This document shows positions 18,361-62,656 of a stretch of DNA of 64,000 nucleotides, one piece after another (the first letter of the stretch is position 1; each line of letters starts with the position of its first letter). The notes beneath the pieces were generated by a model that saw only the letters and a list, made by a program, of their open reading frames with translations, was not told the origin of the DNA and did no database searches. Both the position numbers and the translations under genes were made by a program. The DNA is from Candidatus Omnitrophota bacterium (lineage in GTDB: Bacteria > Omnitrophota > Gorgyraeia > Gygaellales > Profunditerraquicolaceae), in assembly GCA_041651115.1 (NCBI GenBank), contig JBAZJY010000001.1:389165-453164 (forward strand), in the 5' to 3' direction.

Positions 18361-18364
18361 AAAT

Positions 18365-28426: not shown

Positions 28427-28439
28427 CTTATCTATTAAA

Positions 28440-40658: not shown

Positions 40659-41636
40659 ATGTCATTTTGGCAAAATAAAAAAGTCCTGGTGACCGGCGGA
40701 GCCGGCTTTATCGGTTCCTGCGTGGTGGAGATACTCCTAAAGCAGGGGGCGGTAGTTACCGTTGCCGGCAATGAAGATCTACGCCTGGCAACCAATTTAC
40801 GCGGCGTAATAGACGATATTAAATACCTTAAAACAGACCTGAGGCAGCTCATAGATTGTAAAAATGCCTGTGAAGGAAACAGCGTAGTGCTTAATCTGGC
40901 TGCGATAGTAGGAGGGATAAATTTCAATAAACAGCATCCCGGAAGCATATTCCGCGACAATATTTTGATCAGCACGAATACGCTGGAAGCTGCCAGGATT
41001 TGTAACGTCGAGCGGTTCCTTGTTACCAGTAGCGCCTGCATATATCCGCACACATGTAAAATACCGACGCCGGAAAGTGAGGGGTTCGTAGATACCCCCG
41101 AGCCGACAAACGACGGATACGGTTGGGCAAAGCGCATGGCAGAATTCCAGGCAGACGCCTATCACAGGGAATTCGGCATTAATATTGCCATAGTCCGGCC
41201 GTATAACGCATACGGGCCGCGGGACTGCTTTGACCCCGAACGCGCGCATGTAATACCTTCCCTGATTCGCAGGATATTCGCGAACGAGAACCCTCTAATT
41301 GTCTGGGGTGACGGCCAGCAAAGCAGATCATTCTTATATGTTACTGATCTTGCCAGAGGGATTTTAGAGGTAGCGGAAAAATATGCGGTTTGCGATCCGC
41401 TTAACTTAGGCAGTGAAGAAGAAATAAAGATCTCTGACCTCGTTGATCTGATCGTTAAGCTTTCCGGTAAGCAGACCAAGGTCGTATTTGATACAACAAA
41501 GCCCTGCGGCCAGATACGCAGAAAATGCGACGTTACTAAGGCAAGAGAAAAAATCGGCTTTGAAGCAAGGGTGAGCCTGGAAAACGGCATAACCAAAACC
41601 ATTGAATGGTATTTAAAGCAAAATAAACCTGCCTGA
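40659..41636 (+). CDS. fcl: GDP-L-fucose synthase family (GDP-4-keto-6-deoxymannose 3,5-epimerase/4-reductase; Fcl/ColC-like)
   Basis: Collinear with E. coli Fcl: AAIVGGINFNKQHPGSIFRDN against AAKVGGIVANNTYPADFIYQN, SSACIYPHTCKIPTPESE...EPTNDGYGWAK against SSCIYPKLAKQPMAESE...EPTNEPYAIAK, and YGPRDCFDPERAHVIPSLIRRIF against [22 protein letters not shown]. Confidence 0.75.
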   Translation: MSFWQNKKVLVTGGAGFIGSCVVEILLKQGAVVTVAGNEDLRLATNLRGVIDDIKYLKTDLRQLIDCKNACEGNSVVLNLAAIVGGINFNKQHPGSIFRDNILISTNTLEAARICNVERFLVTSSACIYPHTCKIPTPESEGFVDTPEPTNDGYGWAKRMAEFQADAYHREFGINIAIVRPYNAYGPRDCFDPERAHVIPSLIRRIFANENPLIVWGDGQQSRSFLYVTDLARGILEVAEKYAVCDPLNLGSEEEIKISDLVDLIVKLSGKQTKVVFDTTKPCGQIRRKCDVTKAREKIGFEARVSLENGITKTIEWYLKQNKPA

Positions 41637-41638
41637 AT

Positions 41639-42319
41639 ATGACAATGAAGAATTCACTGATTATCCTCACGCTTAATGAAATAGAAGGGGTTCGGGCGGT
41701 ATTCGACAAGATCCCGCTTGCCGGGATTGATGAACTACTTGTAGTGGACGGTGGCTCAACCGACGGGACAATTGATTTTTTTAAAAACAGGGATATCAAA
41801 GTGCTTATCCAGGAGAAAAAAGGCAGGGCAGAGGCATTTCGGATCGGGGCGCAGGCGGCACAGGGGGAGAACCTTTTGTTTTTCAGCCCCGACGGAAACG
41901 AAAACCCGGGCGATATCGTAAAACTATTCGACCTGCTGAATAGCTCTGATATGGCGATCGCTTCACGCTTCTTGCGCGACGCTCATAATGAAGAAGACGG
42001 CAAACTGCTGCCTTTACGCGCATGGGCAAATAAGGCTTTTTCGCTTATGGCAAATATTGCCTGGAATAGGAAGGTTTATATAACCGATACGATCAACGGC
42101 TTCCGGGCGATAAAGAAAGCTGCCTTTGAAAAACTCAATATAGACGCTACGGGATTTGTCATTGAATACCAAATGTCCATACGGGCAATGAAATCCGGGT
42201 TAGAAGTCCGGGAAATCCCCACATATGAAGGCGACCGCATCGGCGGAAGCAGTAAGGCTAAATCCCTGCCTACGGGCTGGCTATTTTTAAAATTCTTTAT
42301 GAGAGAACTTTTTATATGA
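41639..42319 (+). CDS. GT2 polyprenyl-phosphate glycosyltransferase (DPM1/GtrB/ArnC-like)
   Basis: LIILTLNEIEGV...LLVVDGGSTDGT and the short length (226 aa) are typical of lipid-phosphate sugar synthases. Confidence 0.7.
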   Translation: MTMKNSLIILTLNEIEGVRAVFDKIPLAGIDELLVVDGGSTDGTIDFFKNRDIKVLIQEKKGRAEAFRIGAQAAQGENLLFFSPDGNENPGDIVKLFDLLNSSDMAIASRFLRDAHNEEDGKLLPLRAWANKAFSLMANIAWNRKVYITDTINGFRAIKKAAFEKLNIDATGFVIEYQMSIRAMKSGLEVREIPTYEGDRIGGSSKAKSLPTGWLFLKFFMRELFI

Positions 42320-43770
42320 AAAAGCAGGCCTTTTTATTGGCTATCTGCGCTATCTTAGGCATTATTTTCGTCTTCCTGCTCCTGTCTGATTATAATGCTA
42401 ACTGGATGCATCCGGAAGTCACGGCATTCCATATTCCTTATTCACTGGAAAATGGCTGCGTCCTGAGCTTAAAGGACTTACTAAAAAGCTTTGATAGCTG
42501 GGAATTTGACTTTCAGAATTCACGGCCAAGGTTTTTTTCATATTTTTTCCAGATTATTAATCTAAAATTCCGGATATGGCTTTTTGCCTTTATCCCGCCT
42601 CATCCAAGTCTTTCCCTGACCTGGATCTTTACGTTACTGCTTTCACCGTTCTTTCTTTTCCGGCTGGTAAGGAATCTCTCCCTGAACCGGGTTACTGCCT
42701 GGATTGCCGTAATCCTTTATTTTCTCAGCCCGGGGTTCCTTTCGCACCTGACGCTTTTGTTCCATCCCGGAAAGCCCCTGGCAAGCTTTTTTACGATCCT
42801 CTGCCTTTATCTGTCTTCCGAAATATGGCTAGGCATAAAAGTGGCCCGCACCTTCAATAAAAAAGGGTATGCGTTATTCGCCCTGCTGCTGGCAATAATC
42901 TTCCTGGCCTTTATTACCGACGAGGTAAGTTTTTTCATATTTTTTGCCGTGCCTTTGTTATTCCCTGAGATCTTCACGCTGCCACCGGACAAAATCAGGA
43001 TATCCCGGTATTACCGGTTTACCTTTATAGCTTTTCTGCTATTTTTGACTTTTGTTGTTCCGTGGATAACCCGGCACCTCGGATTCGGTGATTTCAATTT
43101 CTGGGATTACATAAAAAGAGGAGGCACAGGAGAACGGTATTACCTTTGGAAAAATATGGATATCGCCAATCTTTTCTTAAACGGGCACTATCTGCTTTCC
43201 AGCCATATCGTCCCTTTCCGGAAGCCCGATCTGGGCCGTTTCTTTAAACTGGATATTTACGCATATGCCGCATTTATTTTTTACTGCTCTTACGCGTACC
43301 GCCGGCTTTCCCCGGCGGCCAAAGATATTTTTAAACGCCTCGGCCTGACGCTGCTCGCCTTTATATTTTTTCATTTCCTGATTTCCAGCCGGCACCTAAA
43401 ACTTACCACAGACTGCTATTATTACGGGGCTGTATTTTCCATATTATTTGCCATTCTATTGGCGATCCTGCTTACAGCAAATACCGGCGCATTAAAAATA
43501 ATAAACGGCATTTTACTGGCTGTTTTCCTGGTCATCTTTGCTTCTAATTTTTATGCAATGAATAAGAGATGGATCAGCTCGCATAATATATGGTACAAGC
43601 ATTTCTTTCCCGAAGCGGCCAGGATCATGCCGGAGGAAAAAAGACTGGATCGCAATATGGTCCTGACGGCCTGGCAGCACAGAAAAGACAAGACATATCT
43701 CCAGGGGGTACAAAAGCAATTTCCCCTTAGGGCCGACTGGTTATTTGTGGAGCTGGATTATATAAAATGA
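42316..43770 (+). CDS. polytopic membrane protein (putative GT-C partner of the GtrB-like GT2)
   Basis: About twelve hydrophobic segments. It is ATGA-coupled to the upstream DPM1-like GT2. No catalytic motif was assigned. Confidence 0.4.
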   Translation: MKKQAFLLAICAILGIIFVFLLLSDYNANWMHPEVTAFHIPYSLENGCVLSLKDLLKSFDSWEFDFQNSRPRFFSYFFQIINLKFRIWLFAFIPPHPSLSLTWIFTLLLSPFFLFRLVRNLSLNRVTAWIAVILYFLSPGFLSHLTLLFHPGKPLASFFTILCLYLSSEIWLGIKVARTFNKKGYALFALLLAIIFLAFITDEVSFFIFFAVPLLFPEIFTLPPDKIRISRYYRFTFIAFLLFLTFVVPWITRHLGFGDFNFWDYIKRGGTGERYYLWKNMDIANLFLNGHYLLSSHIVPFRKPDLGRFFKLDIYAYAAFIFYCSYAYRRLSPAAKDIFKRLGLTLLAFIFFHFLISSRHLKLTTDCYYYGAVFSILFAILLAILLTANTGALKIINGILLAVFLVIFASNFYAMNKRWISSHNIWYKHFFPEAARIMPEEKRLDRNMVLTAWQHRKDKTYLQGVQKQFPLRADWLFVELDYIK

Positions 43771-43940: not shown

Positions 43941-44927
43941 ATGAAAAAGGCTTTAATTACGGGCATAACCGGCCAGGATGGTTCATATCTTGCCGAACTT
44001 CTTTTAGAAAAAGGTTACGAGGTGCACGGGATTGTCAGGCGCGTGGCCTTTGAAGATCCCGAACACCGGCTGTGGCGGGTGCGGCATATTGCCGATAAGA
44101 TATTCCTGCATTCAGCTTCGCTGGAGAGCTATGCCAGCATATTTAATGTTGTGGAAGAGGTCAAACCTGATGAATGTTATCACCTGGCAGCGCAAAGTTT
44201 CGTAAGTTATTCATTTGAAGATGAATTCTCAACGATCAATACCAATATCAACGGTACCAGCCACATACTATCGGCAATAAAACAAAAGGCCCCGGTTTGT
44301 AAATTCTATTTTGCCGGGACAAGCGAGATGTTCGGGCTGACTAAACACTCGCCGCAAAATGAAGAAACGCCTTTTCATCCGCGCTCGCCATACGGAATAT
44401 CAAAAGTTGCTGGTTTTCATTTGGTCCAGAATTACCGGGAATCCTACGGGTTGTTTGCTTCCAATGGCATACTCTTTAACCACGAATCTCCGCGCCGCGG
44501 ACTTGAATTCGTAACGCGCAAGATCACTCACGGGGTTGCCAAAATAAAATTAGGCATTGAAAAAGAGCTGCGCCTCGGTAACCTTGAGGCAAAGCGCGAC
44601 TGGGGATTTGCCGGCGATTATGTAAAAGCGATGTGGCTGATGCTGCAGCAAAACGAGCCTGATGACTTTGTCATTGCTACAGGCGAAACGCACCCGGTGC
44701 AGGAATTTGTCGAACTGGCATTTAACGCTGTCGGCCTTGATTGGAAAAAACATGTGGCCATTGATAACAAACTTTACCGCCCGGCAGAAGTATTCGAGCT
44801 TAAGGGCGACTATAGCAAAGCAAAGAAAAAGCTTGGCTGGGAACCCGATACCAAATTCAAGGATTTGATAAAAATGATGGTGGATGCGGACCTGAAATTG
44901 CTCCAGAACAAACCCGGCATATGTTAA
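43941..44927 (+). CDS. gmd: GDP-mannose 4,6-dehydratase
   Basis: ALITGITGQDGSYLAELLLEKGYEVHGIVRR is the canonical Gmd N-terminus. It is preceded by an aaggagag SD. Confidence 0.9.
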   Translation: MKKALITGITGQDGSYLAELLLEKGYEVHGIVRRVAFEDPEHRLWRVRHIADKIFLHSASLESYASIFNVVEEVKPDECYHLAAQSFVSYSFEDEFSTINTNINGTSHILSAIKQKAPVCKFYFAGTSEMFGLTKHSPQNEETPFHPRSPYGISKVAGFHLVQNYRESYGLFASNGILFNHESPRRGLEFVTRKITHGVAKIKLGIEKELRLGNLEAKRDWGFAGDYVKAMWLMLQQNEPDDFVIATGETHPVQEFVELAFNAVGLDWKKHVAIDNKLYRPAEVFELKGDYSKAKKKLGWEPDTKFKDLIKMMVDADLKLLQNKPGIC

Positions 44928-46138
44928 GAATCAGAGTAGGCGATTTTAAACTTGGGCCACGGGAAAAAAGGATCATCAATGAAGTCGTTGATTCCGGGCA
45001 CCTTTCCGAAGGCGCAAAAGTAAAAGAATTTGAAAAAAAATGGGCTGATTTTATCGGCACCCGGCATTGCGTCCTTGTGAATTCCGGGACATCTGCCCTG
45101 ATCGCCGGCTTGTATGCGCTAAAATACCTCTTTAAACTGAAAGACCGCGCTAAAGTTATAACTTCGCCGCTGACGTTCATCGCTACCGTGAATGCGATCA
45201 CTGCGGCCGGGCTTGAACCGCTGTTTGTTGATATTGACAGGGATACTTACGTCATAACTCCTGAAAACATCGAAAAAGCAATAAGAAAAAATAAAGGCGT
45301 ATCAATACTCCTGCCGGTCCATTTGATGGGCTATCCCGCAAGAATGACGGAAATAAACAGGATTGCCCGTAAGCATAATTTACTCGTAATGGAAGATGCC
45401 GCGCAGGCGCACGGCACTGTTTATAAAAACAAGAAGCTTGGTTCTCTTTCTAAAGCCGGATGTTTTTCGTTCTACATTGCCCACAATGTGCAGGCAGGGG
45501 AGATGGGTGCAGTAGTGACGGATGACCAACGGATCGCGCGGCTGGTGAAAAAGATCAAGGCGCATGGCCGGATGTGCGACTGCCCGGTTTGCCTGCGTCC
45601 GCAAAATAAATGCCCGCGTTTAAATTTTCATAAGGGCGCGGACGACTTTGACCCCCGGTTTTACCACGATATGTTCGGTTTTAATTTTAAAACCATGGAA
45701 TTCCAGGCAGCCCTGGGTCTGGCGCAGCTGGAAAAGATAAAAGAGATCCTAAGGGTAAGGAAGCATAATGTTGAATATCTGAATAACGGGCTGTCCCGGC
45801 TCCAGGGTATCCTGCAGCTGCCGGTATATTCCGACAAGGTCAGCTATCTGGCGTATCCATTGGTGATAAAAGACCCGGCGAGCGTATCGCGCAAAATATT
45901 ACGGCAAAAGCTGGAGGCAGCGGGCATTGAGACGCGCCCGCTTTTTGGTTGCATACCAACGCAGCAGCCGGCGTATGCCTACCTGAAAAATAAATATACG
46001 GGGAAATTGCCAAACGCCGAATACGTGGGGGCAAATGGATTCTACATCGGATGCCACCAATACCTCAAAAAAACCGACCTTGATTATGTGATTACCGCGT
46101 TTAACAACATCCTGAAAGGGCAAATATGGAGCCGTTAG
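44921..46138 (+). CDS. DegT-family PMP-dependent GDP-4-keto-6-deoxymannose 3-dehydratase-like (ColD/E1-type, His replaces PLP-Lys)
   Basis: FSFYIAHNVQAGEMG has His where aminotransferases carry the Schiff-base Lys (compare FNGNK in the CDS at 18365). A downstream Cys cluster CDCPVCLRPQNKC is present. The gene is adjacent to gmd. Confidence 0.65.
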   Translation: MLRIRVGDFKLGPREKRIINEVVDSGHLSEGAKVKEFEKKWADFIGTRHCVLVNSGTSALIAGLYALKYLFKLKDRAKVITSPLTFIATVNAITAAGLEPLFVDIDRDTYVITPENIEKAIRKNKGVSILLPVHLMGYPARMTEINRIARKHNLLVMEDAAQAHGTVYKNKKLGSLSKAGCFSFYIAHNVQAGEMGAVVTDDQRIARLVKKIKAHGRMCDCPVCLRPQNKCPRLNFHKGADDFDPRFYHDMFGFNFKTMEFQAALGLAQLEKIKEILRVRKHNVEYLNNGLSRLQGILQLPVYSDKVSYLAYPLVIKDPASVSRKILRQKLEAAGIETRPLFGCIPTQQPAYAYLKNKYTGKLPNAEYVGANGFYIGCHQYLKKTDLDYVITAFNNILKGQIWSR

Positions 46139-46953
46139 TCAGCGTAATCGTTCCGACTTATAATTCCGCAAAGACGCTGGAAGAATGCCTTAGCGCCTTA
46201 GCCGGGCAGAATTACAAAAATATCGAGGTCATCATCACGGATTCATTCAGCAAAGACAGAACAAAAGATATCGCCCGGCGTTTTACCGACAAGATCATTG
46301 ATGCTGAATCGCTGGCCCTGGCAAGAAAAATGGGGGTGGACCTGGCAAAAGGCAAGTATATCCTTTTTCTTGATTCCGACCAGATCATCAACCCCGATAC
46401 TATCGAGCTTAGTGTTAAAACCTGCGAAGAAGGCGGCTATGACGGGGTAACGCATTTTGAACGCTCTAAGATCCACCGCAACACATTCGTAGAGAGGGTG
46501 ATAAATTACGACAAGTGGATATTTCACTCGCATGAAGACGATGATCCGATCTGTGGTACTGCCGAGCCGCGTTTTTTCAAATCGGAATTTGTCAAAAAGA
46601 TAGATTTTCTCGACAACCCGCCGATAACCTTTGAATTGGCGATCATTAACCTGAAAATGGTGCAGATGGGCGCAAAGATCAAGTTCATCAACGCTTATAT
46701 CTATCATTATGAAACCGCGACCTTTTCACATGTTGCCAGAAAGTTCTTTCGCTACGGCTTTTATTATATCCCCGCATTAAAGCGTTACCCCAACCTCGTA
46801 ATACACCACAGTGCCCCACGCAGGACATATTTCAGCCGCCGCGCCCTGAGAAAACCGCTGTTATTTATCGGGCTGTTCGCGCTTTACGGCGTCAAGGCAG
46901 TTTCTGCATTTTGCGGGGTTGCTTATTGCCTGGTTAAACCTAAATCCAAATGA
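46126..46953 (+). CDS. glycosyltransferase family 2
   Basis: VSVIVPTYNSAKTLEECLSALAGQNYKNIEVIITDSFSKD and a DSD motif. Confidence 0.75.
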   Translation: MEPLVSVIVPTYNSAKTLEECLSALAGQNYKNIEVIITDSFSKDRTKDIARRFTDKIIDAESLALARKMGVDLAKGKYILFLDSDQIINPDTIELSVKTCEEGGYDGVTHFERSKIHRNTFVERVINYDKWIFHSHEDDDPICGTAEPRFFKSEFVKKIDFLDNPPITFELAIINLKMVQMGAKIKFINAYIYHYETATFSHVARKFFRYGFYYIPALKRYPNLVIHHSAPRRTYFSRRALRKPLLFIGLFALYGVKAVSAFCGVAYCLVKPKSK

Positions 46954-47942
46954 CCGGCACGCTAACGTTGTCAGTTGGAATTTCTACTTATAACCGCAAC
47001 GAAGACCTCACTCGGTGCCTGGAATCGCTGGCTAAACAAACCTATCCTGATTTCGACATTATTATTGCCAACGGCGGCGACTATGATGGCGTAAAACGGG
47101 TTACGGATAACTTTAAAAACCTGCGCATTAAGATATTTACTCAGGAACGCAAAGGCATTGTTGAAGCCAGAAATATGTGCTGGAGAGAATCTGATGCGGA
47201 TATCGCCTGCCTCATTGACGATGACTTAGTTGTTTCTCCGGGATGGATAGAGGCCATCCGGGAAACTTTTCTTTCCGACGAAAAGATCGGAGGGGTTTCC
47301 GGCCCGACCATTATACCCGAAGAAAGAATGAAAAATCGCGACCTTTCCTTATTCCTCGGTCAATTCCGGTCCTCCCGTAACATTTTCCTGAAAATAGCCG
47401 GAAAAATGTATTTAAACATTATTTTGGAAAATAAGGTCAACGAAGTAGGAAAAATATTGGACAGCGGGACATTTACCCCCGGATCGAATTTTCCCGACTG
47501 CCTCAAACTGCCTGCGCCGGTAGAGGTAGATTACCTGGAAGCATGCCATATGTGCTTTCGCAGGCTGCTGTTTGAGAAGATCAACGGCTTTGATTATTCC
47601 TATACCGGCACAGGCGAATGGAACGAACCGGATTTCGCTTTTAAGGTCAGAGGCCTGGGATATAAGCTCATCTTCAACCCTAAAGCAGTAACCCGGCATT
47701 ATATCAGCCAGGGAGGCGTATTTAAGGCGCGCACCTATGCCTATGAGCGCAGCAGGAATTTCATTTATTTTTATTTAAAGAACGTAAAGGTAAACAGCCT
47801 GAATAAATTTTTCCGTTTTGGCACCAATCTTCTCTTCATCAACCTGTATTGGCTCTATAAATTCCTTCAATCAAAAAATACCGATTGGCTATGCGGCATT
47901 TGGGGTACCGTGAAAGGGCTGCTCTCAGGAACGAAAATCTAA
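46950..47942 (+). CDS. glycosyltransferase family 2
   Basis: LSVGISTYNRNEDLTRCLESLAKQTYPDFDIIIANGG and a DDD motif. The start overlaps the upstream gene as ATGA. Confidence 0.75.
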   Translation: MTGTLTLSVGISTYNRNEDLTRCLESLAKQTYPDFDIIIANGGDYDGVKRVTDNFKNLRIKIFTQERKGIVEARNMCWRESDADIACLIDDDLVVSPGWIEAIRETFLSDEKIGGVSGPTIIPEERMKNRDLSLFLGQFRSSRNIFLKIAGKMYLNIILENKVNEVGKILDSGTFTPGSNFPDCLKLPAPVEVDYLEACHMCFRRLLFEKINGFDYSYTGTGEWNEPDFAFKVRGLGYKLIFNPKAVTRHYISQGGVFKARTYAYERSRNFIYFYLKNVKVNSLNKFFRFGTNLLFINLYWLYKFLQSKNTDWLCGIWGTVKGLLSGTKI

Positions 47943-48976: not shown

Positions 48977-50512
48977 ATGGGACGCAATATTCAAAGTAAG
49001 ATAAAATCAATCAACGAGCTCGCAAAAACGCTCAGCGCCTTGAAATTAAAAGGCAAATGCGTAGTGCATTGCCATGGAGTTTTCGATCTACTGCATCCTG
49101 GGCACATAAAACATTTTGATGCCGCAAAGAAGAAGGGCGATATCCTCGTTGTCACCGTTACCAAGGATGAATATGTAAATAAAGGGCCAGGCAGGCCAGT
49201 ATTTAATCAGCACCTCCGCGCCGAGAGCATTGCGGCGATTGAATGCGTGGATTTTGTGGCAATCAATGATTGGCCCACGGCAGTAGAGACGATCAAACGG
49301 CTAAAGCCGGATTTTTATGTAAAGGGCAGCGACTACGCCAAAAAAGACGATGACCTGACCGGTAAAATAACCGAAGAGGAAGAGGCAATTAACCTGATCG
49401 GGGGCGCGCTTCACTTTACCGATGAAATATCCTTCAGTTCTTCTTCGCTTATCAATACTTTTCTTGCGCCGTATCCTGAAGACGCCAAAGAGTTTTTTCA
49501 AGCATTTAAAAGCCGGCATAAAGCAAAAGACATAATCCACAAGATCAAGGCCGCGGGAAACACCAAGGTACTGGTAATCGGTGACATAATCATTGACGAG
49601 TACCATTACTGCGCAGGCATGGGTAAATCCCAAAAAGACAACATCATTGCCACGCGATTCTTAAAAGAAGAAGCCTTTGCCGGAGGGGTACTTGCCGCTG
49701 CTAATCATGCCGCAGGGTTTTGTAAAAATGTCACCCTTTTAAGCTGCATCGGCACAGGAAATGAATACGAAGCCTTTATTAACCGGCATCTAAGGCCGAA
49801 TATCCAAACTAAATTCTTTTATCGCAAGGATGCCCCGACTGTCGTTAAGCGCCGCTTTGTTGATCCCGCGTTTTTAAATAAGCTCTTTGAGATATGCTAC
49901 CTTGAAGACGCAAACTATATGCCGGATATCCTGGAAAGCCAGATATACAACTATCTTGATGCAAACCTGAAAAAGTTCGACCTGGTGATCGTCACTGATT
50001 TCGGCCACGGCCTGATCACGCCTAAGATCGTAGGCATCCTTTCTAAAAAAGCCAAATTCCTTGCCGTGAATGTCCAGACAAACAGCGCAAATATCGGCTT
50101 TAACCTGATCACGAAATTCAAACACGCCGATTATATCTGCATCGATGAACCTGAGATCAGGCTGGCCTGCCATGATAAATTCTCTAATCTAAAAGAGCTG
50201 ATCCTGAAGATAAATAAGGCTTGCGCATGCGATAAGATAATCATCACGCGCGGGCACCGCGGGTCATTGGCCTATTCAAAAAAAAGCGGTTTTGTGGAGA
50301 TCCCGGTTTTCTCCAAAGAGGTAGTTGACAGGATCGGGGCAGGAGACGCGTTCTTTTCAGTTACCGCGCCCTGCGCCTTTAAAGATGTCCCGATGAATAT
50401 CGTCGGTTTCATCGGTAACGCAGCCGGCGCGATAAAAGTCCTGATCGTCGGAAACAGGTCGCCGGTAGACCCGACATCCCTATATAAATACATCACAACC
50501 CTGCTTAAATAA
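48977..50512 (+). CDS. bifunctional cytidylyltransferase-fold nucleotidyltransferase / PfkB-family sugar kinase (HldE-like, domain order inverted)
   Basis: The N-terminal VVHCHGVFDLLHPGHIKHF is the HxGH motif of the RfaE domain II / TagD fold. The C-terminal ~350 aa is ribokinase-like with DRIGAGDAF (the GAGD motif). Confidence 0.7.
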   Translation: MGRNIQSKIKSINELAKTLSALKLKGKCVVHCHGVFDLLHPGHIKHFDAAKKKGDILVVTVTKDEYVNKGPGRPVFNQHLRAESIAAIECVDFVAINDWPTAVETIKRLKPDFYVKGSDYAKKDDDLTGKITEEEEAINLIGGALHFTDEISFSSSSLINTFLAPYPEDAKEFFQAFKSRHKAKDIIHKIKAAGNTKVLVIGDIIIDEYHYCAGMGKSQKDNIIATRFLKEEAFAGGVLAAANHAAGFCKNVTLLSCIGTGNEYEAFINRHLRPNIQTKFFYRKDAPTVVKRRFVDPAFLNKLFEICYLEDANYMPDILESQIYNYLDANLKKFDLVIVTDFGHGLITPKIVGILSKKAKFLAVNVQTNSANIGFNLITKFKHADYICIDEPEIRLACHDKFSNLKELILKINKACACDKIIITRGHRGSLAYSKKSGFVEIPVFSKEVVDRIGAGDAFFSVTAPCAFKDVPMNIVGFIGNAAGAIKVLIVGNRSPVDPTSLYKYITTLLK

Positions 50513-50513
50513 T

Positions 50514-51077
50514 ATGGACTATTTTAAAGATCTCTCAGCGATGTTTTTAAAGATTGAGGCCACAGACGAAAGATCAAAAATACTGCCTTTTGGCTCAGCG
50601 ATCCAAAAAGTCATTGACTTGGTAACTTCCCGCGCTAAAACAGGAGGCAAGGTTATTTTTATCGGTAATGGCGGCAGCGCTTCGATTTCCAGCCACATGG
50701 CAACCGATTTTTTAAAAAACGGCAATATCCCCGCGTTAACTTTTAATGATCCCGCTTTCCTTACCTGTATCAGCAACGACCTTGGTTATGACCAGGTTTT
50801 CCGAAAACCTATAGAAGTGCTTGCCAAAAAAAGTGATATTCTGTTTTCCATCAGCAGTTCCGGGAAGTCAAAAAATATCACTGACGCAACCGAAGAAGCA
50901 AAAAATAAAGGCTGCCTAGTCATCACCCTTACCGGCTTTCATAAGGATAACCCCCTGCGGAAAATGGGAGATATAAATTTTTATGTTCCTTCCGGTTCCT
51001 ACGGTTACGTAGAAATCGCCCACCTTGCCGTATGCCACTTCATTATCGATGAAATAATCGCGAATAAAAATGGATAA
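50514..51077 (+). CDS. gmhA: SIS-domain phosphoheptose isomerase (GmhA-like)
   Basis: GKVIFIGNGGSASISSHMATDF matches the GmhA GNGGSAADAQH motif region. Length is 187 aa. Confidence 0.8.
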   Translation: MDYFKDLSAMFLKIEATDERSKILPFGSAIQKVIDLVTSRAKTGGKVIFIGNGGSASISSHMATDFLKNGNIPALTFNDPAFLTCISNDLGYDQVFRKPIEVLAKKSDILFSISSSGKSKNITDATEEAKNKGCLVITLTGFHKDNPLRKMGDINFYVPSGSYGYVEIAHLAVCHFIIDEIIANKNG

Positions 51078-52137
51078 ATTCAAGATCGACAGCCATAAGC
51101 TTATCTATCATACAGAGAGGGTCAATGACTGGCTAAGCGGGCGGAAGATTTATCCCGTATATATCGAAGTCTCTCCCAGCGGCTCATGCAATCATCGCTG
51201 CCTTTATTGCGCCCTGGATTTTATGGAATACCAACCGCGTTTTCTTGATAAAACTATATTTGAAAAAAGATTGTCGGAAATGGGCAGACTTGGGGTAAAA
51301 AGCATTATGTACGCGGGTGAGGGAGAGCCGTTCCTGCATAAGCATATTGCCGGAATAATCCGGCATACGAAAAATTCAGGTATCGATGCCGCAGTCACTA
51401 CAAACGGTGTCTTATTAAAAAGAGGCTTGGCTGAAGACATACTCCCCAGCCTCACCTGGGTCAAAGTAAGTATAAATGCCGGTACAAAAAAGACATATTC
51501 GCTTATCCACCGGACAATCCCGGATGATTTTAATACAGTAATGCGTAATATGGCTGATGCGGCAAAATTGAGGAAGAATAAGAAATACGCCTGCACTCTG
51601 GGGATGCAGATAGTCCTTTTGCCGGAAAATTACCGCGAAGTTGGCCTGCTGGCAAAAAAGGCCCGGGATATCGGAATGGATTATCTGGTCGTAAAACCGT
51701 ATTCCCAGCATCCGCTCAGCAATACGACAAGGTATAAAGATATCAAATATAGCCTGTATCTGGCGCTTGCGGAAAAATTACAGCGGCTTAACCGGGATAA
51801 TTTTAGCTTGATCTTCCGGCTGAACACGATGAAAAAATGGGATGCTGCAAAGCGCACGTACAAACATTGCCTGGCATTGCCGTTTTGGGCCTATATTGAC
51901 GCAGGGGGGGATGTCTGGGGATGCAGTATTTATTTAACAAAAGATAAGTTTTGCCTCGGGAATATCTACAAAAGCGATTTTAAGAAAATCTGGGGTTCCC
52001 TAAAAGCCAAACAGCTATGGAAATGGGCCGCAAATAAGCTCGATACCGGTAAATGCCGGGTAAATTGCCGTATGGATGAAATAAACAATTATCTCTGGGA
52101 GATAAAAAATCCCTCCGAACACGTAAACTTTATTTAA
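51070..52137 (+). CDS. radical SAM protein (SPASM/twitch-like C-terminus)
   Basis: SPSGSCNHRCLYCA is a CxxxCxxC motif. A C-terminal Cys cluster follows (WGCSIY...FCLGN...GKCRVNC). Confidence 0.7.
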   Translation: MDKFKIDSHKLIYHTERVNDWLSGRKIYPVYIEVSPSGSCNHRCLYCALDFMEYQPRFLDKTIFEKRLSEMGRLGVKSIMYAGEGEPFLHKHIAGIIRHTKNSGIDAAVTTNGVLLKRGLAEDILPSLTWVKVSINAGTKKTYSLIHRTIPDDFNTVMRNMADAAKLRKNKKYACTLGMQIVLLPENYREVGLLAKKARDIGMDYLVVKPYSQHPLSNTTRYKDIKYSLYLALAEKLQRLNRDNFSLIFRLNTMKKWDAAKRTYKHCLALPFWAYIDAGGDVWGCSIYLTKDKFCLGNIYKSDFKKIWGSLKAKQLWKWAANKLDTGKCRVNCRMDEINNYLWEIKNPSEHVNFI

Positions 52138-52138
52138 G

Positions 52139-53450: not shown

Positions 53451-53457
53451 TCATAAA

Positions 53458-54243: not shown

Positions 54244-54246
54244 TTT

Positions 54247-57282: not shown

Positions 57283-58008
57283 ATGGAGCGCGGTAAAATA
57301 CAGACAGTGATCCTTTGCGGCGGCAAAGGGACAAGGATGGGCAGCGGCGAAATGCCGAAAGCCATGTTCACGATCGGCGGCAGGCCCCTGTTATGGCACA
57401 TAATGAGGATCTATTCTCATTATGGCTTTAACGAATTCATACTTTGCCTGGGCTACAAAGGAAATAAGATCAGGGACTATTTCTCAAGGATAAAAGAGTG
57501 GAAGATTAAATTCGCGGAAACCGGGCTGGATACCAATACCGGGGGTAGAATAAAAAAAGTCAAAAGCCTTGTCAGGGGAGAGGTGTTTTTTGCCACTTAC
57601 GGAGACGGACTTTCCAGTATAAACATAAACCAGCTGCTTAAATTCCACAAGGCTCACACGAGGACGGCAACCTTAACCGCGGTCCGGCCGTTTTCGCCTT
57701 TCGGCATTGTCGGCATAGACGCGCATTCCAATGCCGTAACACATTTTGAAGAAAAACCCATCCTTGACCATTGGATCAACGGAGGATTCTTTGTCTTTAA
57801 CCAGAAGATTTTTGATTATTTAAAAGAGGGCGATATACTGGAAAAAGATACTTTTCGCCGGGTGCTAAAGAATAACGGCCTGGCAGCATACAAGCACTAC
57901 GGTTTCTGGGAATGCATGGACACATATAAGGATAATCTAAGATTAAACCAACTCTGGGATAGCCAAAAGGCGCCTTGGGCGGCATGGAAAGGAAAGCTAA
58001 ATGAATAA
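57283..58008 (+). CDS. rfbF: glucose-1-phosphate cytidylyltransferase
   Basis: Collinear with Salmonella RfbF: [12 protein letters not shown]...[33 protein letters not shown], then [15 protein letters not shown]...[31 protein letters not shown]. Confidence 0.85.
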
Positions 58009-58987
58009 TTTCTGGAAAGACAGGCACGTCTTTATTACCGGCGCATCCGGCCTTTTGGGGGCCTGGCTGACAAAAGAACTTGTCGATAGGCGGGCGCGCG
58101 TGGTCAGCCTTATCCGGGATGACGTCCCAAATTCAAACCTTATCCACTTCGGGTTAATGGACAAAATCACCGTGGTAAGAGGGAATATCGAAGATTATCC
58201 GCTGATCAGCCGCGTCATCAATGAGTACGAAACCCAGACCGTGTTTCACCTTGCCGCGCAGACTATCGTTACGGTGGCAAACCACAGCCCGCTGTCTACG
58301 TTCGAGGCAAACATAAAGGGGACATGGAATATCCTGGAGGCCTGCCGCAACGGAAAATTCATAAAAGAGGTTATCGTATCCTCAAGCGATAAAGCGTATG
58401 GCGAGAAAGAAAAGCTGCCTTACTGCGAAGACGACCCGCTGATCGGCCGGCACCCTTATGACGTTTCCAAAAGTTGCGCGGATTTGATCTGTCAATCATA
58501 TTTTAAAACCTATAATCTTCCCGTATGCGTTACCCGCTGCGCGAACCTCTACGGCGGCGGAGACCTGAATTTCAGCCGCATCATACCGGGGACGATCCGC
58601 TCTGCAATGAACAACGAACCGCCAATCATCAGGAGCGACGGAAAATATATCCGGGATTATTTTTATGTAAAAGACGCTGTCGCGGCAATGCTGGCGCTTG
58701 CGGAAAAAATACAGGCAAAAAAACTACAGGGAGAAGCCTTTAATTTTTCCAGCGGCATACACGTCAATGTCCTGTCGCTGGTAAACCTGATCTTGAAAAT
58801 AATGGGCAAAAAAATAAAGCCGCGCGTGCTTAATAAAACAAAACACGAGATCAGGGACCAATACCTTTCCATCGATAAAGCAAAAAGGATGCTTGGCTGG
58901 AAGCCCGCATACAGCTTGGAAGACGGCCTGCGCGAAACAATCGAGTGGTACAAAAAATACCTAAAAATCCCCGGGAGGCATTTATGA
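58001..58987 (+). CDS. rfbG: CDP-glucose 4,6-dehydratase
   Basis: [25 protein letters not shown] matches the RfbG N-terminus NFWQGKRVFVTGHTGFKGSWLSLWL. An extended-SDR YxxxK (YDVSKSC) is present. Confidence 0.8.
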
Positions 58988-59433
58988 TTAATGATGTAGT
59001 AATTAAAGAACTTACCCAGATCCCCGACGAACGCGGCAAGATCATGCATATGCTGCGTAAAGACGACGATATTTTTGAAGAATTCGGCGAGATCTATTTT
59101 TCAATCGTCTATCCGGGGGCGATAAAAGGCTGGCACCTGCATAAAAAAATGACCTTGAATTACGCGGTAGTAAACGGAATGATCAAGCTTGTATTATATG
59201 ACGGCAGAAAAGGCTCCCCCACGTTTAACGAAGTCCAGGAAATCTTCATGGGGGACGAGAACTATGTCCTGGTTAAAATACCCGCGGGTATCACTAACGG
59301 TTTTAAAGGCATCGGCACAAAACCGGCGATCGTAGCCAATTGCGCTACCCTGGCGCACGATCCTCAAGAGATTATACGGATCGACCCGCTAAAGAACGAT
59401 ATCCCCTATGATTGGGAGCTGAAACATCGATGA
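58984..59433 (+). CDS. cupin-fold nucleotide-sugar 3,5-epimerase or 3,4-ketoisomerase (RmlC/FdtA-like)
   Basis: [13 protein letters not shown] matches the F.DeRG motif of dTDP/CDP-4-keto-6-deoxyhexose epimerases. Length is 149 aa. The ATG at 58984 overlaps the rfbG stop as ATGA. Confidence 0.6.
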
Positions 59434-60314
59434 ACCAGGCGCTTATTATCGGGGCATCCGGCCTGGTAGGAAATTACCTTCATAAATTGGCGCCTGCCGA
59501 TTATAGGGTTTCCGGGACATTCCGTAACTTTCCTTTGCCCGGGCTGCTTAAACTCGAGATCACCGATAAGAACGAAGTCAAAAGTTTAATCCTTGGCCTT
59601 AAGCCGCAAACCGTATTTTTGCCGGCAGCTTTTACGAATGTAGATATCTGTGAGGACGATCCGGGGTTATGCCATAAAGTCAACGTGGAAAGCATCCGCA
59701 ATATCGCGGATATTTTATCGGTTACAGGCGCAATGCCGGTTTATTTCTCTACGGACTATATCTTTGACGGCAGCAGCGGGCCTTACAGCGAAGTTGCTTC
59801 TCCGTGCCCGTTAGGCACTTACGGTAGATCAAAACTAGAAGCAGAAGAGGCCATAAAAAGAAATTTAAAAAACTACCTGATTATCAGGACTACCTGCGTA
59901 TATGGATGGGAGCATCAGGAAAAAAATTTTGTCGTCAACCTGATCAAAAAGGCAAAATCCGGGAAAATCATTGAAGTTCCGTCAGACCAGATCACTACGC
60001 CGACTTATGCGGGCCATTTGGCTTGCCTGACATGGGGACTGGTATCGGGAGGCGCCCAAGGGACATATAATGTCGCCGGCGCAACCTTGATGAGCCGTTT
60101 TGATTTTGCGCTTCTGGCTGCGGAAGTATTCGGATTGGATAAAAACCTTATAAAGCCGATTACAACTCAAGAGATGTCACGAAAGGCAAGGCGGCCGCTG
60201 AATGCCGGATTAAAAATAACCAAGATAAGCGAGGAATTAAAACGGGGGATCCCCGGTGCGGAAGAAGGGCTTAAGGAAATGAAAAAGGAAATGGGAAATG
60301 GCCGAACATTATAA
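59430..60314 (+). CDS. RmlD-like nucleotide-sugar 4-ketoreductase
   Basis: ALIIGASGLVGNYL, FSTDYIFDG and YGRSKLEAEE are collinear with RmlD. The ATGA-coupled ATG is at 59430. Confidence 0.65.
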   Translation: MNQALIIGASGLVGNYLHKLAPADYRVSGTFRNFPLPGLLKLEITDKNEVKSLILGLKPQTVFLPAAFTNVDICEDDPGLCHKVNVESIRNIADILSVTGAMPVYFSTDYIFDGSSGPYSEVASPCPLGTYGRSKLEAEEAIKRNLKNYLIIRTTCVYGWEHQEKNFVVNLIKKAKSGKIIEVPSDQITTPTYAGHLACLTWGLVSGGAQGTYNVAGATLMSRFDFALLAAEVFGLDKNLIKPITTQEMSRKARRPLNAGLKITKISEELKRGIPGAEEGLKEMKKEMGNGRTL

Positions 60315-61608
60315 ACAGGCAAGGATCAGAAAAAAGATATTCAAGCTGGTAAAAGATTTCTATCTCGCCGGAAAAAGCGCTGCGGATAACGGCAGGATAA
60401 ACTGCTCCGGCCGCGTGTATGACGAAAAAGAAATGATCTCCCTTGTTGACTCGGCACTGGAATTCTGGCTGACCAGCGGCAGGTTTACCAGGGAATTTGA
60501 AGCGGCATTTTCCAGTTTTCTCGGAATAAAACACAGTCTGCTTGTCAATTCCGGTTCATCCGCCAACTTATTGGCAATAGCTGCCCTGACTTCTCCTGAA
60601 CTAGGCAGAAAAAAGCTCTCGCCCGGAGATGAAGTTATCACTACGGCGGCTGCCTTCCCGACAACCGTTAACCCAATAGTGCAGAATCAACTGGTCCCTG
60701 TCTTTGTGGACGTAGAGCTGCCGACATACAATGTTGACGCCGGGGCATTAAAAAAAGCTATCTGCAGAAAAACAAAGGCAATTTTTATCGCCCATACCCT
60801 GGGCAACCCATTTAACATTAGAGAGGTCTCAAGGCTTGCCAAAAAACACGGGCTATTCCTGATTGAAGACGCCTGCGATGCGCTGGGATCAAAATACCAC
60901 AATAGGCTTACCGGCACATTCGGAGACATAAATACTTTCAGCTTTTATCCTGCCCATCATATAACTATGGGCGAAGGCGGGGCGGTAGTTACCGACAATA
61001 AAAAGCTAAAGATCATCCTGCAGTCGTTCCGGGATTGGGGAAGGGCATGCTGGTGCGAAACCGGGTTTGATAACTGCTGCGGCAAGAGATTCAAATGGCA
61101 GTTAGGAAAACTCCCCTATGGCTACGACCATAAATACACATACTCGCACTTAGGTTATAACCTTAAGGCAACGGATATGCAGGCGGCCATCGGCGTTGAA
61201 CAGCTAAAAAAACTTCCATATTTCATATCTAAACGGCAGCGCAATTTTGATTTACTCTACAAAGGCCTGAAGCAGTATTCCCGTTATTTAATCTTACCCG
61301 AGGCAACACCCGGCTCAACTCCCAGTTGGTTCGGCTTCCTGATTTCGGTGGCTAAAAACGCCGGATTTACCAAAAATGACCTCGTGGAATACCTGGAAAG
61401 AAACAAGATCGCCACGCGCATGCTTTTTGCCGGGAATATCACAAAACAGCCGGCGTATAAAAATGTCAGGTTCCGCGTATCCGGAACGCTCAGGGACACG
61501 GATTTTATCATGCAAAACGCATTCTGGATCGGGGTCTATCCGGCACTCGGAGACAATCAAATAAACTACGTCCTGGAAACCTTCAAGAGATTCTTTAAAA
61601 CCCGATAA
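60298..61608 (+). CDS. CDP-4-keto-6-deoxyglucose 3-dehydrase-like (DdhC/E1-type PMP enzyme with Fe-S motif)
   Basis: DegT fold with FSFYPAHHITMGEGG, where His-His replaces the PLP-Lys. About 32 aa downstream lies CWCETGFDNCC, which is C-x1-C-x7-C as reported for the E1 [2Fe-2S] site. Length is 436 aa. Confidence 0.7.
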   Translation: MAEHYKQARIRKKIFKLVKDFYLAGKSAADNGRINCSGRVYDEKEMISLVDSALEFWLTSGRFTREFEAAFSSFLGIKHSLLVNSGSSANLLAIAALTSPELGRKKLSPGDEVITTAAAFPTTVNPIVQNQLVPVFVDVELPTYNVDAGALKKAICRKTKAIFIAHTLGNPFNIREVSRLAKKHGLFLIEDACDALGSKYHNRLTGTFGDINTFSFYPAHHITMGEGGAVVTDNKKLKIILQSFRDWGRACWCETGFDNCCGKRFKWQLGKLPYGYDHKYTYSHLGYNLKATDMQAAIGVEQLKKLPYFISKRQRNFDLLYKGLKQYSRYLILPEATPGSTPSWFGFLISVAKNAGFTKNDLVEYLERNKIATRMLFAGNITKQPAYKNVRFRVSGTLRDTDFIMQNAFWIGVYPALGDNQINYVLETFKRFFKTR

Positions 61609-62645: not shown

Positions 62646-62656
62646 ATACCTGCAAA

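What the first reader, a model, noticed from the sequence alone, without database searches (positions are those of the whole stretch)
43941..46138. GDP-colitose-type branch: gmd followed by a His-variant DegT-family 3-dehydratase that also carries a Cys cluster
The DegT-fold protein after gmd has His (FYIAHN) at the position of the PLP-binding Lys. This is the hallmark of the PMP-dependent 3-deoxygenases ColD and E1 and not of aminotransferases. With the fcl/ColC-like gene at 40659 this predicts a GDP-3,6-dideoxyhexose (colitose-like). Unexpectedly the protein also has CDCPVCLRPQNKC about 35 aa after the His. This resembles the E1 iron-sulfur site, which canonical ColD lacks.
Basis: partly seen in the sequence, partly recalled or inferred. 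Interest (0 to 1): 0.6.

Follow-up and report, generated by a model that had tools for sequence, protein, structure and literature searches.

The report
GDP-sugar 3-dehydrase with E1-like cysteines
Fused to a GDP-mannose dehydratase gene is an enzyme gene predicted to remove the sugar's 3-hydroxyl; it is not the known GDP-pathway enzyme (ColD) but carries a rearranged version of the iron-sulfur cysteine loop of enzyme E1, and it represents a large, unstudied family in anaerobic bacteria and archaea.

Summary
ORF 43941-44927 is a bona fide gmd. ORF 44921-46138 overlaps its stop codon and is a DegT-fold protein. Its His188 aligns with E1 His220, ColD His188 and the perosamine-synthase Lys. Four cysteines (C219, C221, C224, C231) follow. 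The interpretation needs correction. The protein is not a ColD orthologue (28.5% identity) and does not reach the RfbH/E1 cutoff. It belongs to a separate lineage: 120/120 close homologues and 80/80 genome loci keep His plus GR-x-C-x-C-x2-C-x6-C. A profile-profile alignment maps C219, C221 and C231 onto E1 ligands C251, C253 and C261. The fourth E1 ligand (C193) is Ala/Ser here, and C224 sits in a clade-specific insertion. ColD has no loop Cys. The cassette gmd/this gene/fcl-like recurs in at least 13 bacterial and archaeal loci. No E3 reductase or ferredoxin gene lies nearby in any locus. The same window also holds a canonical RfbH/E1 (60298-61608) within a CDP-sugar gene set, so the gmd-coupled enzyme most likely serves a GDP branch. 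Best reading: a PMP- and Fe-S-dependent, E1/SpnQ-style GDP-4-keto-6-deoxymannose 3-dehydrase that leads to a colitose-like sugar. This would be a new variant of a known kind; the biochemistry is untested.

The parts
43941..44927 (+). gmd, GDP-mannose 4,6-dehydratase (328 aa). It supplies GDP-4-keto-6-deoxy-D-mannose. An RBS-like AAGGAGAG lies upstream, after a 170-nt intergenic gap.
   Evidence: TIGR01472 419.8 bits (cutoff 415), PF16363 5e-124; PDB GMDs at 3e-109; 48% identical to E. coli O55 Gmd; sequence.
44921..46138 (+). His-type DegT-fold protein (405 aa): predicted PMP-dependent NDP-4-keto-6-deoxyhexose 3-dehydrase of a distinct lineage with four loop cysteines. Its start codon overlaps the gmd stop codon by 7 nt.
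   Evidence: PF01041 8e-93; best PDB sequence match is E1 3bcx at 2.8e-56; RfbH model 259 bits, below the 423 cutoff; AF2 pLDDT 81.6, DegT fold, E1 query TM-score 0.82; hhalign against E1-proper gives probability 100%, E 3.5e-78.
45482..45484 (+). Codon of His188, in place of the Schiff-base Lys; predicted catalytic acid/base.
   Evidence: Aligns with E1 H220, ColD H188 and PerSyn K186; invariant in 120/120 homologues and 80/80 loci.
45575..45613 (+). Cys loop C219-D-C221-P-V-C224-L-R-P-Q-N-K-C231: predicted Fe-S cluster ligands.
   Evidence: C219=E1 C251, C221=C253, C231=C261; C224 lies in a 2-residue insertion. All four are invariant. AF2 confidence in this loop is low, 52-59.
45401..45403 (+). 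Codon of Ala161, the position of E1 ligand Cys193 (EDAAQAHG against E1 EDCCDALG).
   Evidence: Ala or Ser in 120/120 homologues; no Cys in any of the 76 loci where this motif could be read.
40659..41636 (+). Fcl/ColC-like SDR (325 aa): candidate 3,5-epimerase/4-reductase that finishes the GDP-3,6-dideoxyhexose.
   Evidence: GDP-L-fucose synthase model 208 bits, below the 500 cutoff; PDB GDP-fucose synthetase 1.8e-45; 32% identical to E. coli Fcl and 28% to ColC; homologues lie immediately downstream of the dehydrase in 19 loci.
41639..42319 (+). Small family-2 glycosyltransferase (226 aa) that travels with the fcl-like gene.
   Evidence: PF00535; the fcl-like/GT2 pair recurs in L007, L027, L048 and L065.
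42316..43770 (+). Multi-pass membrane protein (484 aa) with no family match; follows the fcl-like/GT2 pair.
   Evidence: No Pfam hit even at E<=1; a homologue sits in the same position in L007 (465 bits).
46126..47942 (+). Two family-2 glycosyltransferases (275 and 330 aa) directly downstream; candidate transferases for the product.
   Evidence: PF00535; the pair follows the dehydrase in Omnitrophota relatives L003, L011, L013, L014, L017 and L019 at about 350-520 bits.
60298..61608 (+). Canonical RfbH/E1 paralogue (436 aa) with E1 numbering and E1 ligands C193, C251, C253, C261. It is a contrast case, not part of the GDP branch.
   Evidence: NF011936 689.8 bits (cutoff 423); 57% identical to Yersinia E1 and 31-34% to the 44921 protein; invariant Cys listed.
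57283..60314 (+). CDP-branch genes upstream of the canonical RfbH: cytidylyltransferase-like (57283), CDP-glucose 4,6-dehydratase-like (58001), RmlC-like epimerase (58945) and RmlD-like reductase (59412).
   Evidence: TIGR02623 241.8 bits (cutoff 300), TIGR02622 210 (cutoff 278) and rmlD 206.5 (cutoff 224), all below cutoff; PF00908 48 bits, above its cutoff of 27.

Best explanation
Gene 44921-46138 encodes a PMP-dependent nucleotide-sugar 3-dehydrase (C-3 deoxygenase) of the E1/SpnQ mechanistic type that works on a GDP-sugar. Proposed pathway: Gmd, probably translationally coupled, makes GDP-4-keto-6-deoxy-D-mannose. The enzyme forms a PMP-sugar Schiff base. His188 abstracts the C4' proton and the 3-OH is expelled. 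The resulting PMP-enamine is then reduced by two one-electron transfers through an Fe-S cluster held by the loop cysteines C219, C221, C224 and C231. This gives GDP-4-keto-3,6-dideoxy-D-mannose and regenerates PMP. No E3 reductase is encoded nearby, so the electrons would come from a general ferredoxin or flavodoxin, as shown for SpnQ. The Fcl/ColC-like SDR (40659) would then epimerise and reduce the product to a GDP-3,6-dideoxyhexose such as L-colitose, which neighbouring glycosyltransferases would use. Shown here: fold, the His-for-Lys replacement, Cys conservation and its homology to the E1 ligands, gene linkage, and the absence of E3. Inferred: cluster binding and type, the reductive chemistry, the GDP substrate, and the final sugar.
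For: His replaces Lys at the aligned position. The shared frame GR-x-C-x-C...C-[KP]-x-R-[FL] maps three query Cys onto the invariant E1 ligands C251, C253 and C261. All four Cys are invariant in 120/120 homologues and 80/80 loci, and the E1-C193 position is never Cys, which suggests that C224 substitutes as the fourth ligand. E1 and SpnQ carry a [2Fe-2S] cluster, ColD does not, and SpnQ uses general ferredoxin or flavodoxin systems (PMC8987622). The start codon overlaps the stop codon of a bona fide gmd. A true gmd lies within 250 nt in 24 of 79 loci and within 2.5 kb in 34; only 67 of those loci have enough upstream sequence to judge. The gmd/dehydrase/fcl-like cassette occurs in at least 13 bacterial and archaeal loci. 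The query's own subclade is almost entirely gmd-linked. A separate canonical RfbH with CDP-type genes lies in the same window, so the CDP branch already has its own enzyme. No E3-like or ferredoxin gene was found in the window or in the 80 loci. The carriers are overwhelmingly anaerobic lineages, which fits an oxygen-sensitive, ferredoxin-fed enzyme.
Against: There are no biochemical data for any member of the clade; database names are generic. The fourth E1 ligand is missing, and the replacement is inferred only from conservation. Four Cys within 13 residues could instead bind Zn or a [4Fe-4S] cluster. Every characterised GDP-linked 3-dehydratase is ColD-type and glutamate-dependent (PMC10440746). 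About half of the related loci have no gmd nearby, and some have other SDRs next to the gene. Overall identity is about the same to E1 (32.5%), ColD (28.5%) and GDP-perosamine synthase (35.1%). The fcl-like gene in this window is 3.3 kb upstream rather than adjacent, and it scores below the Fcl cutoff.
Confidence: 0.55

Rival explanations
1. The enzyme uses ColD-type chemistry. It is a GDP-4-keto-6-deoxymannose 3-dehydratase that releases the enamine for hydrolysis and regenerates PMP from L-glutamate. The Cys loop would be only a structural metal site (Zn or a redox-inert Fe-S cluster).
For: All characterised GDP-linked C3-dehydratases work this way. The gmd-X-fcl-like cassette mirrors gmd/colD/colC. 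No reductase partner is encoded nearby. SpnQ shows that an Fe-S 3-dehydrase can also run glutamate-dependent chemistry.
Against: The protein is only 28.5% identical to ColD and is not in the ColD lineage. ColD itself does without the loop cysteines, so absolute conservation of four Cys, homologous to redox-cluster ligands, across bacteria and archaea is hard to explain as structural only. The residue before the His is Ala, as in E1, not the Ser187 of ColD (the title of PDB 3gr9 names S187N).
Confidence: 0.2
2. The enzyme is an E1/SpnQ-type Fe-S 3-dehydrase, but its substrate is not GDP-4-keto-6-deoxymannose. It could act on a CDP-, dTDP- or UDP-4-keto-6-deoxyhexose, or on a GDP-6-deoxy-4-keto-heptose made from the heptose genes nearby.
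For: Its best sequence match among solved structures is CDP-specific E1. Roughly half the related loci lack gmd, and some have other 4,6-dehydratase-like SDRs adjacent. HldE-like and GmhA-like heptose genes lie 3-5 kb downstream and co-occur in L001. C. jejuni uses GMD-family dehydratases on GDP-heptose. The gmd score is only just above the cutoff.
Against: The gene overlaps gmd by 7 nt, and the gmd linkage recurs across the whole clade. The window has a separate canonical RfbH with its own cytidylyltransferase and dehydratase set. The heptose genes are HldE-type (ADP-heptose), and no HddA or HddC passing its cutoff is present. The partner SDR belongs to the GDP-fucose synthase family.
Confidence: 0.15
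3. The protein is an ordinary sugar aminotransferase or an inactive paralogue, and the His and Cys are incidental.
For: Databases name it a DegT/DnrJ/EryC1/StrS aminotransferase. Overall identity is highest to GDP-perosamine synthase, at 35%.
Against: The Schiff-base Lys is absent, and no Lys is available by shifting the alignment. His and the four Cys are invariant across at least 149 genomes' worth of relatives under clear purifying selection. The roughly 25-residue loop is absent from the Lys-type aminotransferases.
Confidence: 0.03

Closest known systems
E1 / RfbH / DdhC / AscC (CDP-6-deoxy-L-threo-D-glycero-4-hexulose 3-dehydrase, Yersinia pseudotuberculosis; PDB 3BCX)
   Same: DegT/AAT fold. 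His replaces the PLP Lys, and Ala precedes the His. A roughly 25-residue insertion carries GR-x-C-x-C...C-x-x-R-F. Three of the four cluster ligands align (C251, C253, C261). E1 is the best sequence match among solved structures.
   Different: Only 32-34% identical and below the RfbH model cutoff (259 against 423). The C193 ligand is replaced by Ala, and an extra loop Cys (C224) lies in a VC insertion. The gene context is gmd rather than rfbF/rfbG, and there is no E3 partner. A true RfbH orthologue sits elsewhere in the same window.
ColD (GDP-4-keto-6-deoxy-D-mannose 3-dehydratase, E. coli O55; PDB 2GMS) and the C. jejuni HS:5/HS:11 C3-dehydratases
   Same: His188 at the same aligned position. 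The gene is linked to gmd and to an Fcl-family epimerase/reductase. The predicted substrate and product are the same.
   Different: 28.5% identity, whereas characterised ColDs are 62-67% identical to each other. ColD has no loop cysteines but keeps the E1-C193 equivalent; the query has the opposite pattern. ColD has Ser187 where the query has Ala187. ColD is cluster-free and glutamate-driven.
SpnQ (TDP-4-keto-2,6-dideoxy-D-glucose 3-dehydrase, Saccharopolyspora spinosa)
   Same: A His-type, [2Fe-2S]-containing 3-dehydrase with no dedicated E3; it uses cellular ferredoxin or flavodoxin reductase pairs. This matches the absence of any reductase gene near the query clade.
   Different: SpnQ acts on a dTDP-linked 2,6-dideoxy substrate in actinomycete secondary metabolism. 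No SpnQ sequence was available, so no direct comparison was made.
GDP-perosamine synthase (Caulobacter; PDB 3BN1/3DR4)
   Same: It has the highest global identity to the query (35%) and the best Foldseek E-value. It uses the same GDP-4-keto-6-deoxymannose substrate.
   Different: It has the catalytic Lys, lacks the Cys-bearing insertion, and is an aminotransferase rather than a deoxygenase.

Membership tests
E1 / RfbH (NF011936; CDP-4-keto-6-deoxyglucose 3-dehydrase) | Score at or above the curated equivalog cutoff | tested here: not met
   259.2 bits against a cutoff of 423; the window's other gene at 60298 scores 689.8.
E1 / RfbH | His in place of the PLP-binding Lys (E1 H220) | tested here: met
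   H188 aligns with H220 in phmmer, MAFFT and hhalign alignments.
E1 / RfbH | Loop ligands C251, C253 and C261 of the C-X57-C-X1-C-X7-C motif | tested here: met
   C219, C221 and C231 align with them. They are invariant in E1-proper and in the query clade. The motif itself is recalled from Agnihotri et al. 2004, cited in PMC8987622; residue numbers counted fit it.
E1 / RfbH | Fourth ligand C193 (EDxCDALG) | tested here: not met
   Ala161 in the query. Ala or Ser in 120/120 homologues, and no Cys in the 76 loci where the motif could be read.
E1 / RfbH | CDP-glucose pathway context (cytidylyltransferase, CDP-glucose 4,6-dehydratase) and an E3 reductase partner | tested here: not met
   The context is gmd and fcl-like genes. 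No E3-like ORF was found in the window or in 80 loci.
E1 / RfbH | Bound [2Fe-2S] cluster and one-electron PMP chemistry | not testable with these tools
   Needs anaerobic purification, Fe/S analysis and EPR.
ColD (GDP-4-keto-6-deoxymannose 3-dehydratase) | Orthology to characterised ColDs, which are 62-67% identical to each other | tested here: not met
   28.5% identity to E. coli O55 ColD; separate branch in the NJ tree.
ColD | Catalytic His188 preceded by Ser187 | tested here: inconclusive
   The His is met. The preceding residue is Ala, as in E1, not Ser.
ColD | No Fe-S ligands in the insertion loop | tested here: not met
   The ColD loop IRAHGW...TRNLPKKNK has no Cys; the query has four.
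ColD | Genetic linkage to gmd and a ColC/Fcl-family enzyme | tested here: met
   7-nt overlap with gmd; fcl-like gene in the cluster; the cassette occurs in at least 13 loci.
ColD | Glutamate-dependent PMP regeneration with release of ammonia | not testable with these tools
   Needs an enzyme assay.
SpnQ-type 3-dehydrase | An Fe-S His-type 3-dehydrase that works without a dedicated E3 | tested here: inconclusive
   The absence of E3 or ferredoxin genes nearby is consistent with this. No sequence comparison with SpnQ was done, and the electron donor is unknown.
DegT/DnrJ/EryC1/StrS sugar aminotransferases | Schiff-base Lys after the SFxxxK strand | tested here: not met
   His at that position; the nearest Lys is 10 residues upstream. 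The fold-level Pfam match is met.

The most novel reading that the evidence does not exclude
This clade is a third, previously unrecognised class of sugar C-3 deoxygenase. It would be an Fe-S-dependent, ferredoxin-fed enzyme for GDP-sugars, with an all-in-loop C-x-C-x2-C-x6-C ligand set that may hold a cluster type or potential different from that of E1. It would be the 'anaerobic' counterpart of cluster-free ColD, and it implies that colitose-like 3,6-dideoxyhexoses decorate the surfaces of methanogens, Bathyarchaeia, DPANN archaea, CPR bacteria, anammox bacteria and Omnitrophota. I am not aware of reports of such sugars in those groups; that statement rests on my own knowledge and was not searched exhaustively.
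Probability: 0.45. Interest if true: 0.7.

Novelty: new variant of a known kind. Interest (0 to 1): 0.58.

Why it matters
Textbook deoxysugar enzymology ties mechanism to nucleotide carrier. CDP and dTDP sugars are 3-deoxygenated by Fe-S enzymes (E1, SpnQ) that need an electron supply. GDP sugars are handled by cluster-free, glutamate-driven ColD. A conserved, gmd-coupled enzyme with E1-type cysteines would break that link. It would offer a natural experiment in Fe-S ligand swapping (C193 to a loop Cys). It would also give a sequence marker (AHN[IV]QAGE plus GRxCxCxxCx6C) for predicting 3,6-dideoxyhexoses in the surface glycans of uncultured anaerobes and archaea. It is directly testable with one recombinant protein and a commercial substrate (GDP-mannose plus Gmd).

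Tried and rejected
- Primary E1 and SpnQ papers (PMC2782820, PMC2515268, PMC2515278, PMC2197195) are not held. The ligand identities therefore rest on the review, on my recollection of the C-X57-C-X1-C-X7-C motif, and on the invariance seen in E1-proper sequences.
- Foldseek against the PDB did not discriminate among DegT-fold enzymes. All score about 1e-26 to 1e-29.
- The AF2 loop confidence is low and coordinates are not exposed, so Cys-Cys and Cys-PMP geometry could not be measured.
- I guessed that the 'NHGRDSIYLSIDDDD' subgroup (P0152) was ColD. It is not: 173 bits to ColD, no better than to other structures. ColD was then taken from the E. coli O55:H7 genome instead.
- I looked for a dedicated reductase by neighbour-family census, by Pfam on recurrent and on unannotated neighbours, and by motif scans. 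None was found.
- Promoter and terminator scans around gmd were at chance level.
- The NJ trees have no support values. I use them only to say that the clade is not nested in E1-proper or ColD.
- The idea that membrane protein 42316 is a GT-C/PMT_2 transferase was dropped, because it has no Pfam hit even at E<=1.
Full report
**What is there.** The window is one uninterrupted + strand glycan-biosynthesis island from a Candidatus Omnitrophota MAG. The protein is 100% identical to an NCBI MAG protein on a 647-kb contig. ORF 43941-44927 (328 aa) is a bona fide GDP-mannose 4,6-dehydratase: it scores 419.8 bits against TIGR01472 (cutoff 415), PDB GMDs match at 3e-109, and it is 48% identical to E. 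coli O55 Gmd. Its last codons overlap the start of ORF 44921-46138 (ATATGTTAA). That ORF encodes a 405-aa DegT-fold protein (PF01041 8e-93; AF2 pLDDT 81.6, pTM 0.84).

**Checking the observation.** FYIAHN is at residues 184-189 and CDCPVCLRPQNKC at residues 219-231. In phmmer, MAFFT and profile-profile alignments, His188 lines up with E1 His220, ColD His188 and the catalytic Lys186 of GDP-perosamine synthase. The nearest Lys is 10 residues upstream, so no shift restores it. Among the 120 closest database clusters (61-100% identity), His188 and Cys219, 221, 224 and 231 are invariant. In 80 loci from GTDB species genomes (55-74% identity), the motifs [FY][FY]xAH[NS] and GRxCxCxxCx(5-8)C are each present in 80 of 80, and the spacing between the third and fourth Cys is 6 residues in 79 of 80.

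**Do the cysteines correspond to the E1 iron-sulfur site?** Counting E1 residues in the 3BCX alignment gives Cys at 193, 251, 253, 257 and 261. This fits the published C-X57-C-X1-C-X7-C motif (193/251/253/261; recalled from Agnihotri et al. 2004, cited in PMC8987622). An alignment of six E1-proper sequences shows exactly C193, H220, C251, C253 and C261 invariant, while C257 is not conserved. hhalign of the query clade (32 sequences) against E1-proper gives probability 100%, E = 3.5e-78, and aligns AHGRMCDCPVCLRPQNKCPRLNF with [22 protein letters not shown]. This gives:

- C219 = C251
- C221 = C253
- C231 = C261
- C224 lies in a two-residue insertion absent from E1-proper
- Ala161 occupies the C193 position

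That position is Ala or Ser in all 120 homologues and is never Cys in the 76 loci where the motif could be read. E. coli O55:H7 ColD, retrieved from NC_013941, has no Cys in the loop but retains the C193 equivalent. The review PMC8987622 confirms that E1 and SpnQ bind a [2Fe-2S] cluster and ColD does not. The fourth ligand appears to have been relocated into the loop. That last step is an inference.

**What family is it?** It is neither an RfbH/E1 orthologue (259 bits against a cutoff of 423; 32.5% identity) nor a ColD orthologue (28.5% identity). Characterised ColDs from E. coli, Y. pseudotuberculosis and C. jejuni are 62-67% identical to each other and are glutamate-dependent (PMC10440746). 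Among 150 representatives of 50%-identity clusters, the His-type proteins fall into several groups:

- E1-proper
- a broad group with 3-4 loop Cys, with or without the C193 equivalent
- several Cys-free groups

In an NJ tree built without the loop columns, the query lineage (Ala/Ser at position 161, four loop Cys) is separate from both E1-proper and ColD. The tree has no support values. Database names for the clade are only generic automated ones.

**Genomic context.** A scan of GTDB species genomes found 149 relatives, of which 80 loci were kept. They come from Omnitrophota, Patescibacteria, anammox Planctomycetes, Chloroflexota, Goldbacteria, Methylomirabilis, Methanobacteriaceae, Methanoperedens, Methanosarcinales, Bathyarchaeia, Thermoplasmata and many DPANN archaea. 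These are overwhelmingly anaerobic lineages. A true gmd (at least 300 bits to the window's gmd) lies within 250 nt in 24 of 79 loci and within 2.5 kb in 34; 67 of the loci have enough upstream sequence to judge. An fcl-like SDR lies within 250 nt in 19 loci. The three-gene cassette gmd/dehydrase/fcl-like occurs in at least 13 bacterial and archaeal loci. Omnitrophota relatives instead show gmd-(SDR)-dehydrase-GT2-GT2, as in the window. The query's own subclade is almost wholly gmd-linked. In the window the fcl-like gene (40659) sits 3.3 kb upstream with a small GT2 and a membrane protein, and that module recurs in L007, L027, L048 and L065. It is 32% identical to E. coli Fcl and 28% to ColC.

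**A second 3-dehydrase in the same window.** ORF 60298-61608 is a canonical RfbH: 689.8 bits, 57% identical to Yersinia E1, with the same residue numbering and all four E1 ligands. It follows four genes: a glucose-1-phosphate cytidylyltransferase-like gene, a CDP-glucose 4,6-dehydratase-like gene, an RmlC-like epimerase and an RmlD-like reductase. Together these form an ascarylose-like CDP branch. The CDP branch therefore has its own enzyme, which strengthens the assignment of the gmd-fused paralogue to a GDP branch.

**The missing reductase.** I found no E3-type protein (plant-type ferredoxin plus FNR), no small ferredoxin and no flavodoxin in the 64-kb window or in any of the 80 loci. The evidence is Pfam on nearly all window ORFs, a neighbour-family census, Pfam on unannotated neighbours, and motif scans. 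The recurrent neighbours are SDRs, GT2 and GT4 transferases, B12-radical-SAM enzymes, a flippase and methyltransferases. Even the canonical RfbH here lacks an adjacent E3. The documented precedent is SpnQ, which uses general ferredoxin or flavodoxin reductase systems.

**Most likely mechanism (confidence 0.55 for the whole chain).** The proposed steps are:

1. Gmd makes GDP-4-keto-6-deoxymannose.
2. A PMP-ketimine forms, and His188 drives 3-OH elimination.
3. The intermediate is reduced by two electrons through an Fe-S cluster held by the four loop Cys, fed by cellular ferredoxin or flavodoxin.
4. The product is GDP-4-keto-3,6-dideoxymannose.
5. The Fcl/ColC-like SDR converts it to a colitose-like GDP-3,6-dideoxyhexose.
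6. Adjacent GT2 enzymes transfer the sugar.

My rough estimates for the components are: 3-dehydrase identity about 0.9, Fe-S binding about 0.75, GDP substrate about 0.75, and reductive rather than glutamate-driven turnover about 0.6. The rivals are ColD-like chemistry with a structural metal site (0.2), a different nucleotide or heptose substrate (0.15), and an aminotransferase or inactive protein (0.03).

**Novelty and score.** This is a new variant of a known kind: a populous, uncharacterised lineage of His-type 3-dehydrases with a rearranged E1-like ligand set, coupled to the GDP-mannose pathway. It would modestly surprise a deoxysugar enzymologist and is directly testable, but everything mechanistic is inferred from sequence and context. 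Interest 0.58.

Noticed in passing
window 57283-61608: A complete CDP-ascarylose-like branch: cytidylyltransferase-like, CDP-glucose 4,6-dehydratase-like, RmlC-like epimerase, RmlD-like reductase and a canonical RfbH/E1 (690 bits). There is no E3/AscD reductase anywhere in the window. One island therefore seems to encode two parallel 3,6-dideoxyhexose routes.
   Followed up: partly
window 48977-54906; L001 1-6874: A conserved cassette: an HldE-like protein with reversed domain order (cytidylyltransferase N-terminal, PfkB kinase C-terminal), a GmhA-like SIS protein, a radical-SAM/SPASM enzyme, a split transketolase (N and pyrimidine-binding parts), a GT2 and a xylose-isomerase-like TIM barrel. 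It co-occurs with gmd and the dehydrase in a 'Patescibacteria-group' MAG. Transketolase-like genes also sit next to the dehydrase in L043, L021/L024, L016 and L080. This may indicate ThDP-dependent two-carbon branching of a 4-keto sugar (compare yersiniose and paulomycose; from my own knowledge) or an unrelated heptose-derived pathway.
   Followed up: partly
window 40659-43770; L007: The module of fcl-like SDR, small GT2 and a 484-aa multi-pass membrane protein with no Pfam match is conserved in L007. The fcl-like/GT2 pair also occurs in L027, L048 and L065. It might be a polyprenyl-phosphate-sugar route, but the membrane protein could not be classified.
   Followed up: partly
window 9032-20589: A legionaminic-acid-like gene set: LegB-like dehydratase (438 bits, just below cutoff), LegC aminotransferase (above cutoff), NeuB, UDP-GlcNAc 2-epimerase, two CMP-sugar cytidylyltransferases and a CBS-domain nucleotidyltransferase. 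A HisF/HisH-like cyclase/amidotransferase pair (13486-15046) and a formyltransferase-like gene are also present.
   Followed up: no
window 23151-24671 and 62647-64000 (runs off the end); 32 of 79 related loci: B12-binding radical-SAM enzymes recur within 8 kb of the dehydrase (48 genes in 32 loci). The window also has three radical-SAM/SPASM genes (29-1174, 26745-27689, 51070-52137). This suggests radical modification, such as methylation, of the glycans.
   Followed up: no
window 21276-22415: A 3-dehydroquinate-synthase-like (sugar-phosphate cyclase family) gene sits between a cytidylyltransferase and a short-chain dehydrogenase inside the glycan island. This is unusual for a polysaccharide cluster.
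   Followed up: no
window 1-64000: All ORFs of at least 150 aa that look real lie on the + strand, with mostly overlapping or abutting ends: about 60 genes in one direction. Several large ORFs have no Pfam match (1975-3288, 6190-7185, 15015-16304, 19537-20589, 24673-26748, 28404-30281, 35551-37164, 54893-56533, 56404-57279).
   Followed up: no
representatives P0152, P0162, P0186 etc.: The His-type (Lys-less) DegT proteins include further large uncharacterised groups. One has a conserved acidic loop NHGRDSIYLSIDDDD and no cysteines, and is not ColD. Another has AHGWIRD. ColD itself keeps the equivalent of E1 ligand C193 although it has no cluster.
   Followed up: partly
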